A DNA stretch of 24,792 bases from Candidatus Jordarchaeia archaeon. GTDB lineage: Archaea; Asgardarchaeota; Jordiarchaeia; Jordiarchaeales; Jordiarchaeaceae. The notes beneath the pieces were generated by a model. The model had not been told where the DNA came from, ran no database searches, and saw only the letters and a list, made by a program, of their open reading frames with translations. Position 1 is the first letter of the stretch. Each line of letters starts with the position of its first letter. The stretch lies in NCBI GenBank assembly GCA_029856435.1, contig JAHQXB010000151.1, positions 1 through 24,792 on the forward strand, given 5' to 3'. The position numbers and the translations under genes are program-made. This document shows, in pieces, positions 15,874 through 19,440 of this stretch.

Positions 15874-18800
15874 TTAAGTTTCAGGGACTATCGTTACTTC
15901 TACTAGCGAGTTTAATACCAGTTTGTTTGGTACTTCTTTGGGTTCGTCTGGTTTTTCTAGGTCGAAAATCATTGTCCCTAGATAGTAAGTTTTGAGTTCT
16001 TTGGGTCTTTGGATCTCCCAAATTATGGGTTGGTCTAGGGGTCTTATGGGTTTTCCTTTTGACAGGATGATGGTTTTCTTTTCCTGTGCAACTACCTCTT
16101 TTGTCTTTTTGTCGAAAATTGCGAATACTATTCTGGCGTTAACATCATAGTCAATAAAGCTTTGAACTATTGGAGTTATGCTAAACTCCATTTTTTCGCC
16201 TTGGAACATTACGTACTCAGCCAGTGGAGGTTTACTACTGTAACCAACTCTGAACCTTGGCTTGTCTGAGTAGACTCTTATTTTCTTCCTGTTCACCCAA
16301 CCCACTATGCCATTCTGGCTTAGTTGAAGGTTTATGGTACACTCATTATCTGCAATGTAGGTGGGTATTTTGACGCCTACTTGAGCTAATAGTGTCTCGT
16401 TGGGTTTAAGGTGTATTGGTATGTCTTCTCTGAAGATTTTCTTTCCTTCTATTTCTCCTTCGCAGTTCAGGTCGAAGCTGATTTTGTCATCGATTCTATT
16501 TACTATTTGTACCATAAGATTATGTATTGAGCCGGGGGCCAACTGTTCTGGCAGATTCTGGAAAACCACTTCCACCGCCCTCCCTATATTTATAACTGGG
16601 ACTTCGCGGGTGGATTCTAAGACGGTTTTTCCATTTTTGATGAGGGTGGCCCTTAAACAGAAGTGTTCAGTGCCTTGAGGTACAGTCAGAGGATCTATCT
16701 CAATAAGGGTTTCTGACTGGGCATCGTCTATACTTCTTGTGGTAATCATGTGGGGTTGATCGTTAATTAGGGCTTCGACACTAAGAATTAAAGGTTTTTC
16801 GCTTTCTTTGATTTTTCCAATTTTAAGTTTTCCACCAACGGGCATATTAATAAAGGCTTTTTCGGGTACATTTAACCATTCTATTTCTATGGGAGGTCCT
16901 TTCACCAGTTTAAACTTGTGGGGGAGCTCTTCATACTCAAGTAGGCTTCCCCCTTGATAAAGTTCTATGCTTACCTTCATTATGTCACTACGGAGATTCT
17001 TTAACGCGTCCTCTGTGGCTTTCCAACTTGTAGTTATTATCGCCTTCTTTGTGGGACTTATTGTTTCTTCTTTAAGTACCATCTCAAAATCTTTTCTGGT
17101 TGTAGATTTTAGTTTGGCAACCACGTTAACTGGTTCTGTTGATGACATTTTGGTGGCGTCCACAGAAAAGCTGATTTCAATTGGTTCACCTATCTGATAG
17201 ATTTTGTTCGGCTCCTTCTTTACTTCGAGGGAAATTTCTGGCGTCTGGAAGAAAACCCTAAATGCGGGAGACCTGCTTTCAGAAATAATCTTTCCATTCT
17301 GGTCTATGACCTGAGCTACGATGGAACACTGAGGACTGAGAAAAGACGACTTGGCCATATGGGTATGGAGAACTAGTGGTGGAATCTCGTTCCAACTGCC
17401 CTCCTGCTGGGCTTCTAACGCGTCTTTGGCCCACTGGAGTTTAGCCATCTCTTCAGACATGGCAACGAAGAGCTCTTGCTCTTTGGCACGCATATTCCGT
17501 AGCTTTGCTCCCCAGGGCTGGCCTTCGCTACTAATTGAGTAAAGTGTTTGTCCCCGATCAATGTCCACAATTGAAACCTTCAAAGTTAAATTCATGTCTA
17601 GAGGTGTAGCGTTCTCTACAAAGACTGCATAAGGCACTTCTGTTGCCCCAGTAACTATCACTCCATCGACTTGAGCGATAAGGTTGCTCTTGCAAGTAAC
17701 ATGGTAAGCCTGTATTGAGGTTCTCTCAATGGCTATTGTTTCAGTTCCAACTTTTAATTCACTCTTCAGAATGTATTGGGGCACGCCCATTATTGTTTCG
17801 AATTCGATTTCTCCCACTCTTTTCTCCGCAGGCTCCAGTCTATCCACTACAAAGGTTTCCCTCAGTCTCTCTTCGCCTAAACTGTCATAGACTAGATTCT
17901 CAATTGATATATTCTCCAATGGCTTCTTGCCCTTGTTCTCTAAGAATAACCTACAGGTTACGGGTTGGCCCTCGAAAACAACTTCGGGTTTTATTTGAAT
18001 CTCCATGCTGGCGGTCACGGGGAATATTTCTTGTAAGTTAGGTGTGCCATGGATAGGGTCACTCCAAACATCGGCGCAGCTCTGATCAGCTATGATTTGT
18101 AACTCTCGAGAGAGGCGTTCCATATTTCCCTTGAGTTCCAAGAATTTTAAGAGTTGGTAATCAGCGGTTGTGAGTGGTGTGGGGAAGCTACCTGACAGGT
18201 CCCCGTAAAGTGTTAGCATAATTGGTTTAAGATATTCTGAACGCAGTATTCCCATTTCCTCTAGTTCATCCTTAATGTAGAGTATCATGTTTTTTACTGC
18301 TTCATGCATCCTTTTGAGGAACTCTGTCCCCTCTTCTGGGTTCTCATAATAGTAGAATTTTGAAAACTCCGGATAACTTTTTAGGAAACTATCCACCTCT
18401 TTTTGTTTAAAGAAGGGGCCCATAAGCCCCCATCTAATTGCTGATCTGCGATTTTTTACCAAAGTTTCGGAATCTACATTAGGAATCTTTTCCCCTTTTT
18501 CAAAAATCTTCTTGGCTTTCAGAGCCAAAGCTTGAATCAGGGCTGCTAAGGCTATTCTCCTAATCAAGCTTATTTGAGAGTCGAAAACCCGTACCTCTAC
18601 TGTGCCAAAGGAGGTGAAGGGAAACATATCACACATTCTGGCGGGTATACGGCCCACAACGCCTTCAAATTTCTTTTCATCATAACTTTCAACATAAGGT
18701 ATATAGTGCTGTGCATCGTCTGGTCCCAACTGTTTAATGTTCCTTTCTAACCTTATGCTCCTCACACATCCCGGGGCCTGCAGCTTGCCGTCCTTTATCT

Positions 18801-19440
18801 CAACAATGTCTGTTGGTTTTCCCTCCACAAAGGGCGAATTCACGGACAACGCTATTAAATGGGGCAAAAACGCCCTCAATAAATTATAGACATGGATACG
18901 CAGCTTGGGATCGGGGATACCAATGTGGTGGTGGTCTCCAAAACTGAGTCCCTGTTGATAATCCATAAGAGGGTTTAAACCCGTTGTGACAACCTTAACA
19001 CCTGGGGGGAGCGCATCATGAGACAGTTTAACAAGGGTGTGCGCCCACCAAGTCAACTCCTCGAAGGTGTCGCAGGGCGGGGTTGCTACCTCCAAAATCC
19101 AAGTTATGGCTGTCATATGGGGGTCTTTTCCCAAAATTTCCACGTCTATCTGCTTCCCGTCTGGAAGCTTGTAGCTACATATTAGGGTGTCCCCTCTTTT
19201 TTGCACCTGTTCCACTCTTACGTTGGAAACCTTTCTGCTAATGTAGGTCGTTATGGGGTCCTGTGGTTTCTTTAGAATGTTTTTTAGGTTTTTGGATGCT
19301 TCTTCCACGATTTTGCCCATGATGCTGACCATTTTTTCGCCGTCAATCCAAGTCCCCTTAAGGTTTACAATCTGTATTTCCATCTCTATGCCGTGCGTGA
19401 AGGGCATCTTCAACAATTTTAGGTTGCTTTGTGTTGACAT
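15874..19440 (-). CDS. GCS2/YbdK-type carboxylate-amine (gamma-glutamyl) ligase fused to ~6 predicted Ig-like beta-sandwich domains
   Basis: FTHGIEMEIQ, ILEVATPP, GLNP, FGDHHHIG, LIALSVNSPF, GTVEVRVFDSQ, NRRSAIRWGL in aa 1-460. aa ~475-1188 show repeating beta-strand units of ~110 aa. No signal peptide or TM segment seen. Confidence 0.88.
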   Translation of the reverse strand: MSTQSNLKLLKMPFTHGIEMEIQIVNLKGTWIDGEKMVSIMGKIVEEASKNLKNILKKPQDPITTYISRKVSNVRVEQVQKRGDTLICSYKLPDGKQIDVEILGKDPHMTAITWILEVATPPCDTFEELTWWAHTLVKLSHDALPPGVKVVTTGLNPLMDYQQGLSFGDHHHIGIPDPKLRIHVYNLLRAFLPHLIALSVNSPFVEGKPTDIVEIKDGKLQAPGCVRSIRLERNIKQLGPDDAQHYIPYVESYDEKKFEGVVGRIPARMCDMFPFTSFGTVEVRVFDSQISLIRRIALAALIQALALKAKKIFEKGEKIPNVDSETLVKNRRSAIRWGLMGPFFKQKEVDSFLKSYPEFSKFYYYENPEEGTEFLKRMHEAVKNMILYIKDELEEMGILRSEYLKPIMLTLYGDLSGSFPTPLTTADYQLLKFLELKGNMERLSRELQIIADQSCADVWSDPIHGTPNLQEIFPVTASMEIQIKPEVVFEGQPVTCRLFLENKGKKPLENISIENLVYDSLGEERLRETFVVDRLEPAEKRVGEIEFETIMGVPQYILKSELKVGTETIAIERTSIQAYHVTCKSNLIAQVDGVIVTGATEVPYAVFVENATPLDMNLTLKVSIVDIDRGQTLYSISSEGQPWGAKLRNMRAKEQELFVAMSEEMAKLQWAKDALEAQQEGSWNEIPPLVLHTHMAKSSFLSPQCSIVAQVIDQNGKIISESRSPAFRVFFQTPEISLEVKKEPNKIYQIGEPIEISFSVDATKMSSTEPVNVVAKLKSTTRKDFEMVLKEETISPTKKAIITTSWKATEDALKNLRSDIMKVSIELYQGGSLLEYEELPHKFKLVKGPPIEIEWLNVPEKAFINMPVGGKLKIGKIKESEKPLILSVEALINDQPHMITTRSIDDAQSETLIEIDPLTVPQGTEHFCLRATLIKNGKTVLESTREVPVINIGRAVEVVFQNLPEQLAPGSIHNLMVQIVNRIDDKISFDLNCEGEIEGKKIFREDIPIHLKPNETLLAQVGVKIPTYIADNECTINLQLSQNGIVGWVNRKKIRVYSDKPRFRVGYSSKPPLAEYVMFQGEKMEFSITPIVQSFIDYDVNARIVFAIFDKKTKEVVAQEKKTIILSKGKPIRPLDQPIIWEIQRPKELKTYYLGTMIFDLEKPDEPKEVPNKLVLNSLVEVTIVPET

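What the first reader, a model, noticed from the sequence alone, without database searches (positions are those of the whole stretch)
15874..19440. 1188-aa GCS2/YbdK ligase with a ~710-aa tail of Ig-like domains
Seen: catalytic-type residues look intact (E19/E21, E117, H-x-H at 170-172, R230, E282-x-R284). About six beta-rich units follow (18018-15874), one with a helical insert (KLRNMRAKEQELFVAMSEEMAKLQWAKDAL). No secretion or TM signal is apparent. Known: YbdK/GshA-type enzymes are usually ~370-450 aa stand-alone proteins, and cytoplasmic Ig-like arrays occur in adaptin appendages and large TRAPP subunits. The motifs are YbdK-like rather than PafA-like, and the usual D-x-R-P is DMFP here. 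Inference: the tail recruits macromolecular substrates or anchors the enzyme to a scaffold.
Basis: partly seen in the sequence, partly recalled or inferred. Interest (0 to 1): 0.76.

Follow-up and report, generated by a model that had tools for sequence, protein, structure and literature searches.

The report
Asgard amide ligase with Ig-domain tail
This gene of a Jordarchaeia (Asgard) archaeon encodes an apparently active ATP-dependent amide-bond ligase of the YbdK type fused to six Ig-like domains; it is the core of a gene set I found described in no paper (small partner protein, ligase, metal hydrolase, vWA protein) that Asgard archaea keep together, and its substrate is unknown.

Summary
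ORF 15874-19440 (-) encodes 1188 aa. Residues 1-470 are a YbdK/GCS2-fold carboxylate-amine ligase (VIA Z 34.1 to Salmonella YbdK 1tt4). It keeps the metal and ATP motifs. The strand-5 Arg is aromatic here (F273), as in every Asgard relative aligned. Residues 477-1185 form six Ig-like (CARDB/MG-like) beta-sandwiches. There is no signal peptide or TM segment.

The fusion is not an artefact. About 100 full-length homologues (Jord-, Thor-, Sif-, Lokiarchaeia labels) share it, some on Mb-scale contigs.

The ligase module is an Asgard-only clade whose tail varies by lineage. Its family-level distribution matches that of an Amidohydro_2 hydrolase with an intact metal site, and the two trees agree. 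A MIDAS-intact vWA protein is usually nearby, and one protein is a vWA-ligase fusion. A family-less "c1" domain protein (here 19458-20243) sits directly upstream of the ligase in most lineages.

The role of the tail, docking or scaffold, remains inferred. Whether the substrate is a protein or a small molecule is open.

The scan has flagged this module before on other DNA (at least 40 genomes), with concordant follow-ups. I found no paper describing it. Verdict: a real, undescribed variant of a known enzyme kind.

The parts
15874..19440 (-). Whole 1188-aa ORF: ligase module plus six Ig-like domains
   Evidence: full-length homologues
18031..19440 (-). Ligase module, residues 1-470. The GS-fold core carries E19xE21, E117, H170xH172, S228xR230 and E282xR284xxD287. 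A helical C-subdomain runs to about residue 456. The strand-5 Arg is replaced by F273.
   Evidence: 1tt4: Z 34.1, rmsd 2.7 A over 329 residues
17704..18012 (-). Ig-like domain 1 (residues 477-579), the best conserved tail domain
   Evidence: Z 12-13 to GH66/GH2 Ig domains, Spo0M, CARDB 3idu, A2M MG
17248..17700 (-). Ig-like domain 2 (residues 581-731), with an insert specific to Jordarchaeia
   Evidence: tails of 713-717 aa in Jordarchaeia against 672-679 aa in Thor-type loci
17395..17523 (-). Low-confidence, partly helical insert (residues 640-682)
   Evidence: pLDDT under 50; column conservation 0.23
16903..17232 (-). Ig-like domain 3 (residues 737-846)
16591..16887 (-). Ig-like domain 4 (residues 852-950)
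16273..16575 (-). Ig-like domain 5 (residues 956-1056); weak FixG_C Pfam hit
   Evidence: 5axg: Z 13.5-14.1, rmsd about 2 A over 107 residues
15886..16254 (-). Ig-like domain 6 (residues 1063-1185)
19458..20243 (-). 'c1' partner gene (261 aa), 17 nt upstream of the ligase. Motif D-x4-[FY]GGGxLTY. No known family.
20251..21609 (-). 452-aa first gene of the operon (coiled-coil C-terminus); found only in Jordarchaeia loci
12581..14056 (+). Amidohydro_2 metal hydrolase partner (491 aa). The HxH (H21, H23), H169, H239 and D300 are invariant.
14202..15698 (+). vWA partner (498 aa). The MIDAS residues D260xS262xS264, T385 and D419 are invariant. Convergent with the ligase (175-nt gap).

Best explanation
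Shown: the gene encodes a cytoplasmic, probably active ATP-dependent carboxylate-amine (amide-bond) ligase of the YbdK/GCS2 fold. It belongs to an Asgard-only clade and is fused to six Ig-like (CARDB/MG-type) beta-sandwich domains. It is one part of a conserved gene set: a c1-domain protein directly upstream, the ligase, an Amidohydro_2 metal hydrolase, and a MIDAS-intact vWA protein. Inferred mechanism: the ligase phosphorylates a glutamyl-type carboxylate with ATP and joins it to an amine on a protein or peptide-like substrate. That substrate is held by the protein-binding parts of the system, namely the Ig tail, the c1 protein and the vWA protein. The hydrolase removes or processes the amide, so the pair acts as writer and eraser. 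The Ig tail is a lineage-variable docking or scaffold arm and takes no part in the chemistry.
For: Fold and motifs:
- PF04107, TIGR02050 and PDB 1r8g match by sequence.
- VIA gives Z 34.1 to 1tt4 and 26.3 to plant GCL.
- ExE, E117, HxH, SxR and ExRxxD are conserved or invariant in 34 homologues and in all sub-forms, as defined in PMC2588565.

Tail:
- Six beta-sandwiches in the model.
- Foldseek matches MG-domain arrays at E 1e-18 to 1e-14.
- Single-domain VIA scores are Z 10-14 at about 2.3 A.
- A profile of the tail reaches CARDB, NEW3, N_BRCA1_IG and MG2 repeat proteins.
- The six-domain layout matches end to end in the Jord- and Thor-type loci and in the f6 and f26 loci.

Gene set:
- The amidohydrolase lies next to the ligase in 14 of 20 loci.
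- Family tallies are nearly identical (ligase f9 63/68 and f21 17/21, the ligase counts at the looser cut-off E <= 0.001; hydrolase 62/68 and 15/21; the other families equal). At the stringent hydrolase cut-off (E <= 1e-30) no other family has it; a few of them have only weak ligase hits, best E 6e-7 to 4e-4 where listed.
- The two trees are congruent, and the paralogue groups with f27 in both.
- The hydrolase metal site is invariant and the vWA MIDAS is invariant.
- P0107 is a vWA-ligase fusion.
- The c1 domain lies upstream of both long and short ligases.
- Where the ligase lacks the tail, the c1 protein has an N-terminal stretch with a CARDB-like pattern. The test of this was weak.

Protein-binding flavour: Ig arrays, a MIDAS vWA, and no conserved small-molecule pathway genes in the loci.
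Against: No substrate is identified. No Pup-like small ORF with a conserved C-terminal Gly-Gly-Glu/Gln is conserved in the loci. All characterised GCS2 members, and most Amidohydro_2 members, act on small molecules (established knowledge). The loop Arg (R230), which Iyer et al. 2008 say may either stabilise the phosphotransfer intermediate or bind a substrate, is kept, so a free glutamate substrate is not excluded. The tail is absent from Lokiarchaeia-type orthologues, so it is not needed for the core reaction. The strand-5 Arg is lost across the clade, which could lower or change activity.
Confidence: 0.4

Rival explanations
1. Small-molecule pathway of the FluG or Puu type. The ligase gamma-glutamylates, or otherwise amidates, a metabolite, and the Amidohydro_2 enzyme acts before or after it on the same metabolite. 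The Ig tail, c1 and vWA only build or regulate an enzyme assembly.
For: Pairing of an amidohydrolase with a carboxylate-amine ligase has precedent in FluG/NodGS and in SCO6961/6962 (PMC6478659). The hydrolase has a full metal site. The closest structures are small-molecule enzymes (YbdK, plant GCL, GshF). No tag-like ORF was found. Short orthologues work without the tail. Ig-like domains are also structural spacers in GH2 and GH66 enzymes, which are the top single-domain matches.
Against: A conserved MIDAS vWA partner and a vWA-ligase fusion are unusual for a metabolic pair. About 700 aa of Ig domains are kept across the Jord-, Thor- and Sif-type homologues. No further metabolic genes are conserved around the set. 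The protein scores below the NCBIfam cut-offs for every YbdK and GshA equivalog.
Confidence: 0.35
2. It is simply the organism's gamma-glutamylcysteine ligase (GshA), making a low-molecular-weight thiol.
For: Source annotations read 'glutamate-cysteine ligase family protein'. It has the GCS2 fold. Reviews count Asgard GshA-family hits (PMC7278568).
Against: The scores are far below every GshA and YbdK equivalog cut-off (for example 96 against 176 bits, and 74 against 409 bits). The strand-5 Arg is lost. It forms a separate Asgard-only clade, with a gap from E about 1e-36 to about 1e-15 before ordinary YbdK-like proteins appear. It is linked to a hydrolase, a vWA protein and c1 rather than to thiol metabolism genes.
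Confidence: 0.07
3. Pseudo-enzyme. The ligase fold is kept only as a binding module on an Ig scaffold.
For: Loss of the superfamily's strand-5 arginine (PMC2588565). One fusion form has N in place of the first His of HxH.
Against: The ExE, E117, HxH, SxR and ExRxxD motifs and many surrounding residues are invariant across lineages with only 26-28% overall identity. A clade-specific conserved R268 lies next to the lost Arg.
Confidence: 0.06
4. Secreted or surface protein, or an assembly or fusion artefact.
For: CARDB/NEW3-type Ig arrays are typical of archaeal surface proteins.
Against: There is no signal peptide or TM segment, and the N-terminus is catalytic strand 1. The same architecture occurs in about 100 proteins, including genes on 1.5-3.6 Mb contigs.
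Confidence: 0.02

Closest known systems
YbdK / GCS2 carboxylate-amine ligases (PF04107; E. coli YbdK 1r8g, Salmonella 1tt4; plant GCL 2gwc)
   Same: The same GS-type fold (Z 34.1 and 26.3). The same ExE, acidic strand, HxH, loop Arg and ExRxxD motifs.
   Different: It is three times longer, with six C-terminal Ig-like domains. The strand-5 Arg of DxRP is F or Y. It has extra beta-hairpins before the E117 strand. It scores below the NCBIfam cut-offs. It forms a discrete Asgard-only clade and has obligate partner genes.
PafA/Dop/Pup tagging system of Actinobacteria
   Same: It belongs to the same ligase superfamily (Z 18.9 and 19.7). The logic of a ligase plus a removing enzyme is similar. This would be the model if the substrate is a protein.
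   Different: There is no Pup_ligase Pfam hit. Strand 6 is ExRxxD, not [QH]x4D. The hydrolase is an unrelated TIM-barrel enzyme, not a ligase paralogue. No Pup-like ORF was found. No proteasome genes were found with the searches run in the loci examined.
FluG / NodGS (Amidohydro_2-like domain fused to a GSI-like gamma-glutamyl ligase) and SCO6961/6962
   Same: It pairs a metal amidohydrolase with a carboxylate-amine ligase of the same superfamily, and the substrate is likewise unknown (PMC6478659).
   Different: Here the ligase is of GCS2 type, not GSI type. The genes are separate. The vWA, c1 and Ig tail are extra. No sequence link between the two hydrolases was tested.
Alpha-2-macroglobulin / complement C3 / TEP MG-domain arrays, and CARDB/NEW3 Ig-like repeats
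   Same: A serial array of beta-sandwiches of about 100 aa each. These are the top Foldseek hits (E 1e-18). Single-domain scores are Z 10-11 to MG and CARDB domains. The tail profile reaches CARDB, NEW3 and MG2 repeat proteins.
   Different: TM-scores are 0.1-0.2 and rmsd is about 25 A, so the domain arrangement differs. There is no thioester motif (no CGEQ), no A2M, bait-region or TED Pfam hit, and the protein is cytoplasmic.

Membership tests
GCS2/YbdK carboxylate-amine ligase (PF04107) | Pfam model above the gathering score | tested here: met
   39.6 bits against a cut-off of 21, though only residues 162-210 align
GCS2/YbdK carboxylate-amine ligase (PF04107) | GS-type fold closest to solved YbdK | tested here: met
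   1tt4: Z 34.1, rmsd 2.7 A, 329 residues, 23% identity. Foldseek TMt 0.77.
GCS2/YbdK carboxylate-amine ligase (PF04107) | Catalytic motifs: strand-1 ExE, acidic strands 2 and 3, strand-4 [HD]x[NH], strand-6 Ex[RK]xxD, loop Arg (PMC2588565) | tested here: met
   E19/E21, E117, H170/H172, E282/R284/D287 and R230 are invariant or nearly so
GCS2/YbdK carboxylate-amine ligase (PF04107) | Conserved Arg in core strand 5 (DxRP) | tested here: not met
   F273 here, and F or Y in all Asgard sub-forms, against R in YbdK-like proteins
YbdK subfamily and GshA equivalogs (NCBIfam TIGR02050, NF0100xx) | Score above the curated cut-off | tested here: not met
   96.3 against 176.4 bits; 87.8 against 371; 73.7 against 409
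YbdK subfamily and GshA equivalogs (NCBIfam TIGR02050, NF0100xx) | Gamma-Glu-Cys ligase activity | not testable with these tools
   needs an enzyme assay
PafA/Dop Pup ligase family | Pup_ligase sequence model; strand-6 [QH]x4D; adjacent Pup gene ending in G[EQ] | tested here: not met
   No Pfam hit at E<=1. Strand 6 is ExRxxD. No conserved small ORF was found and no partner has a GG[QE] C-terminus. The structural Z of 18.9-19.7 is well below that to YbdK.
Alpha-2-macroglobulin / TEP family | MG array together with a thioester domain (CGEQ), bait region and A2M domains | tested here: not met
   Only MG-like sandwiches match. There is no CGEQ and no A2M, TED or BRD Pfam hit.
CARDB / NPCBM_assoc (NEW3) / E-set Ig-like domains | Pfam models above the gathering score for the tail domains | tested here: inconclusive
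   FixG_C 17.7 against 25.6 bits, and NPCBM_assoc 14.1 against 24.4. However, the tail profile hits CARDB/NEW3 repeat proteins at 1e-19 to 1e-10, and the CARDB structure 3idu scores Z 10.8-11.0.
N-formylglutamate amidohydrolase (FGase, PF05013), for the upstream c1 partner | Match to the family model; Zn ligands | tested here: inconclusive
   The sequence-model test was not met: PF05013 finds nothing in this genome at E<=0.01, there is no Pfam hit, and there is no PDB sequence hit. Only an Atlas feature lead exists (0.91).

The most novel reading that the evidence does not exclude
Asgard archaea have their own ATP-dependent, reversible protein-modification system that is unrelated to ubiquitin. 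A GCS2-fold ligase writes a gamma-glutamyl or isopeptide-type amide mark on proteins docked by its Ig arm, the c1 partner and a MIDAS vWA adaptor. A TIM-barrel metal hydrolase erases the mark. This would be a third, independent invention of protein tagging, beside ubiquitin and Pup, in the lineage closest to eukaryotes.
Probability: 0.3. Interest if true: 0.85.

Novelty: new variant of a known kind. Interest (0 to 1): 0.62.

Why it matters
The ligase clade, its hydrolase partner, the vWA protein and the c1 domain form a gene set that is nearly all-or-none among the Asgard families sampled. It was duplicated and inherited as a unit. I found it described in none of the papers searched.

If it acts on proteins, it would be a new tagging chemistry in the closest archaeal relatives of eukaryotes. 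If it acts on a metabolite, it points to an unknown gamma-glutamyl-type compound that is common in these organisms.

A short orthologue exists in the cultured Candidatus Lokiarchaeum ossiferum (P0275), so the question can be tested experimentally.

Tried and rejected
- **Complex prediction, tail (A2) with c1 (A3):** score 0.02, no verdict. This is not evidence either way.
- **PADLOC:** no defence-system hit for the ligase, c1, hydrolase or vWA protein; only coiled-coil noise.
- **Profile of the hydrolase (A4) against PDB sequences:** no hit at 0.01. The single sequence gave only a weak LigW hit.
- **Profile of c1 (A3) against PDB sequences:** only coiled-coil noise.
- **FGase model PF05013 on this genome:** no match.
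- **The 452-aa gene against the 805-aa EAP30-domain protein that holds the same position in the f26 locus (its 794-aa homologue does so in f6):** no similarity.
- **The c1 and tail profiles on the ~620-aa upstream proteins of the short forms:** the tail profile gives nothing. The N-terminal Ig-like reading rests on hhalign probability 19%, E 1.2e-3, which is inconclusive.
- **The c1 domain in the f27 and paralogue loci:** not detected convincingly (best E 0.014).
- **A2M homology of the tail:** rejected as membership (low TM-score, no thioester).
- **Small-ORF scan for a Pup-like tag:** only roadblock-like 125-aa proteins recur.
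Full report
**1. Observation.**
The window is about 40% G+C. It carries an ATG-started ORF of 1188 aa on the minus strand at 15874-19440.

The helical insert is residues 646-675.
- By sequence, only the N-terminal third matches a known family: PF04107 GCS2 (5e-10, above the gathering score), TIGR02050 YbdK (2e-27, below its cut-off), and PDB YbdK 1r8g/1tt4 (1e-10).
- The tail gives only sub-threshold hits to Ig-like families: FixG_C, Arrestin_C and NPCBM_assoc.
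- No 19-residue window reaches TM-like hydrophobicity. The N-terminus runs straight into catalytic strand 1, so nothing suggests secretion.

**2. Structure.**
An AF2 model built on 34 homologues has mean pLDDT 82.8 and pTM 0.60.

- Residues 11-456 are an alpha/beta ligase domain with a helical C-subdomain.
- Six all-beta units follow at 477-579, 581-731, 737-846, 852-950, 956-1056 and 1063-1185.
- The stretch 640-682 has low confidence and is poorly conserved. The Jordarchaeia tails are about 40 aa longer than the Thor-type tails, which fits an insert specific to Jordarchaeia.

An exhaustive structural comparison ranks the ligase domain as follows:

| Structure | Z |
|---|---|
| Salmonella YbdK 1tt4 (rmsd 2.7 A, 329 residues) | 34.1 |
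| Plant GCL 2gwc | 26.3 |
| GshF | 20.9 |
| Dop | 19.7 |
| PafA and GshA | about 19 |
| Glutamine synthetases | about 15 |

The tail matches MG-domain arrays of alpha-2-macroglobulin, C3-C5, TEP1 and CD109 in Foldseek (E 1e-18 to 1e-14 over about 800 columns). But TM is 0.1-0.2 and rmsd about 25 A, so this is a serial beta-sandwich likeness and not a shared arrangement. Single domains superpose at Z 10-14 and about 2-2.5 A on many Ig-like/E-set domains: GH66 and GH2 Ig domains, Spo0M, HAP2 domain III, CARDB 3idu, A2M MG, arrestin N-lobes, the NBR1/ILRUN FW domain and transglutaminase barrels.

A profile of the tail alone was searched against 1.84 billion representatives. All 18 hits below 1e-30 were this same family. 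Weaker hits were multi-repeat proteins, and the eight I scanned carry CARDB, NEW3, N_BRCA1_IG, DUF11 and MG2 repeats. There is no thioester motif. The tail is therefore Ig-like but belongs to no specific described family.

**3. Active site.**
Iyer et al. 2008 (PMC2588565) define the superfamily by five features: strand-1 ExE, acidic residues on strands 2 and 3, strand-4 [HD]x[NH], strand-6 Ex[RK]xxD, and two arginines, one in strand 5 and one in the loop before it.

- E19xE21, E117, H170xH172, S228xR230 and E282xR284xxD287 are invariant or nearly so in 34 homologues that share only 26-28% overall identity. They are also conserved in all sub-forms.
- The strand-5 Arg (D-V-R-P in ordinary YbdK-like proteins) is F or Y in every Asgard form.
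- A clade-specific Arg (R268) lies three residues before D271.
- I infer an active enzyme with a remodelled strand-5 region. Whether R268 takes over the lost role could not be checked without the model coordinates.

**4. Distribution.**
- A search of 5.8 billion proteins gave 111 homologues of 650-2080 aa. All named sources but one are Asgard (Freyarchaeota/Jordarchaeia 50-94% identity; Sif-, Thor-, Loki- and Asgardarchaeia about 30% over about 90% of the length). The exception, P0089, is labelled Thermoplasmatota. Several sit on contigs of 1.5-3.2 Mb.
- In 301 genomes of the phylum, 186 have a match. Tail type follows lineage:
  - f1/f2 (Jordarchaeia): 1180-1190 aa, plus a second paralogue of 1230-1410 aa.
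  - f7 (Thor-type): about 1145 aa.
  - f9: only about 555-590 aa.
  - f27: about 950-1090 aa.
- The short forms are the ligase module with an N-terminal extension of about 85 aa and no tail.
- Among shorter proteins, the Asgard clade ends at about E 1e-36. It includes Ca. Lokiarchaeum ossiferum, Hod-, Heimdall- and Sigynarchaeia, plus two hits labelled 'Bathyarchaeota' and 'bacterium'. A gap follows, to ordinary 365-400-aa YbdK-like proteins at about 1e-15.
- The own genome has a paralogue of 1377 aa on another contig. The C-terminal part of its tail is related to this tail.

**5. Gene set.**
I fetched 20-kb regions around 20 ligase genes from 10 families.

*Hydrolase.*
- An Amidohydro_2 protein of 470-540 aa lies beside the ligase in f1, f2, f6, f9, f23, f27, f28 and the paralogue locus.
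- In the f7 genomes where both places were listed, it lies about 10-12 kb away on the same contig, next to the vWA gene.
- Its HxH, H169, H239 and D300 are invariant.
- At E<=1e-30 its family tally matches the ligase's almost exactly: f1 5/5, f2 5/5, f6 1/1, f7 65/76, f9 62/68 (ligase 63/68), f21 15/21 (ligase 17/21), f23 4/7, f26 1/1, f27 11/11, f28 1/1. The ligase counts are at the looser cut-off E <= 0.001, so the f21 figure includes at least one weak hit. It is absent from all other families, for example f5 0/29, f12 0/19 and f14 0/11.
- Jordarchaeia genomes have two ligases and two hydrolases.
- FastTree trees of the two proteins from the same 14 loci agree on the main groups, and the paralogue pairs with f27 in both (support 0.985 and 0.995). 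This covers few taxa, and kin are not independent.

*vWA protein.*
- A vWA protein with invariant MIDAS residues (D260xS262xS264, T385, D419) is adjacent or near in most loci.
- P0107 is a vWA-ligase fusion.

*c1 partner.*
- The 261-aa gene 17 nt upstream of the ligase (19458-20243) is homologous to a gene of about 220 aa in the same position in the Thor-type, f26 and f6 loci. BLASTP gives E 8e-6, and the shared motif is D-x4-[FY]GGGxLTY.
- Its core also matches the C-terminal domain of the ~600-640-aa gene (381 aa in f28) upstream of the short ligases in f9, f23 and f28. hhalign gives probability 84.6% and E 6.8e-6, and reciprocal HMM hits are 3.6e-10 and 2.5e-5.
- This 'c1' domain has no Pfam, PDB or PADLOC match. 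The only homologues found were a handful of unnamed or Jordarchaeia-labelled hypothetical proteins.
- An FGase-like reading is only a language-model lead. The PF05013 model does not support it.

*The 452-aa first gene* of the operon was found only in the Jordarchaeia loci examined.

**6. Mechanism.**
Shown: an apparently active YbdK-fold ligase, six Ig-like domains, and a co-inherited set made of a c1 protein, a hydrolase and a vWA protein.

Inferred: the set makes and removes an amide bond. I favour a protein or peptide-bound substrate (0.40), for three reasons:
- The accessory parts are protein-binding modules (Ig arrays, a MIDAS vWA and a vWA-ligase fusion).
- These modules move between components.
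- No metabolic genes are conserved around the set.

The FluG-like small-molecule reading is nearly as likely (0.35), for three reasons:
- Characterised GCS2 and Amidohydro_2 enzymes act on small molecules.
- The pairing of an amidohydrolase with a ligase has the FluG and SCO6961/6962 precedent.
- No Pup-like ORF exists.

The tail is absent from f9 orthologues, so it cannot be part of the chemistry. A docking or scaffold role is the simplest reading, but it is untested.

**7. Literature and earlier scan notes.**
Searches for the ligase with Asgard, GCS2 and YbdK terms found no description of this family. A review only counts Asgard hits to GshA InterPro families.

After my own analysis I looked up the scan's notes. 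The same module has been flagged in at least 40 genomes, and several follow-ups reached the same ligase-hydrolase-vWA conclusion.

What I tested here myself, whether or not earlier follow-ups also did:
- The clade-wide swap of the strand-5 Arg for an aromatic residue, with R268 nearby.
- The sequence link of the tail to CARDB/NEW3-type repeats.
- The finding that the c1 domain is also the C-terminal domain of the ~600-640-aa gene (381 aa in f28) upstream of tail-less ligases, which makes it a fourth common component.

**8. Verdict.**
This is a new variant of a known enzyme kind, inside a gene set I found described in no paper and whose substrate is unknown.

Noticed in passing
L035:4962-7379 (+) and L042:12060-14444 (-): In the f26 and f6 genomes, the gene directly upstream of c1 and the ligase encodes a protein of about 800 aa. 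In L035 it has an EAP30/Vps36 (ESCRT-II) domain at residues 603-784 (E 3e-19). The L042 homologue shows no such Pfam hit. There is no detectable similarity to the 452-aa gene in the same position in this window.
   Followed up: partly
window 10787-11659 (-); L032:3544-4425; L044:18111-18932; L045:12778-13749: A gelsolin-repeat protein lies within a few kb of the ligase set in loci of three families (f1, f9, f23). In L045 it sits between the c1-type gene and the vWA gene. It is absent from three other f9 loci, so this may be chance.
   Followed up: partly
L051 (G000 contig C148): 5508-7709 (+), 7690-8502 (+), 9073-13206 (+), 13217-14545 (-), 15711-17339 (-): This is the second copy of the module in the same genome: a Cdc48-type double-AAA ATPase, an ArsR-type HTH protein, a 1377-aa ligase paralogue, a vWA protein and an amidohydrolase. 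In trees of both the ligase and the hydrolase, the paralogue groups with family f27.
   Followed up: partly
L041:8232-9458 (-) and 9459-11837 (-): In genome G244 the ligase is split into two adjoining ORFs of 792 and 408 aa that together cover the full protein. This could be a frameshift, a stop codon or a sequencing error.
   Followed up: no
L038:15032-17662 (+): An 876-aa ORF with weak similarity to both the amidohydrolase (residues 1-370) and the N-terminal part of the vWA protein. It has no Pfam hit and is distinct from that genome's true hydrolase orthologue.
   Followed up: no
L036-L040, upstream of c1 and the ligase (e.g. L036:4717-6786): In Thor-type genomes, two OppD/OppF-like ABC ATPase genes (ABC_tran plus oligo_HPY) and a 145-aa gene of no known family precede c1 and the ligase in conserved order. 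A DUF92 membrane protein follows the ligase.
   Followed up: no
L043:10841-12769 (-) and its homologues in L044, L045, L049 and L050: The protein of about 620 aa upstream of the short ligases has three parts: an N-terminal stretch of about 110 aa with a CARDB-like pattern, a coiled-coil and helical middle, and a C-terminal c1-like domain. The shorter L048 homologue (381 aa) has a weak TRAPPC13_C hit.
   Followed up: partly
window 12026-12577 (+): A 183-aa coiled-coil protein ends 3 nt before the amidohydrolase start. Among the loci examined, a homologue was found only in the same-genus genome (L032).
   Followed up: no
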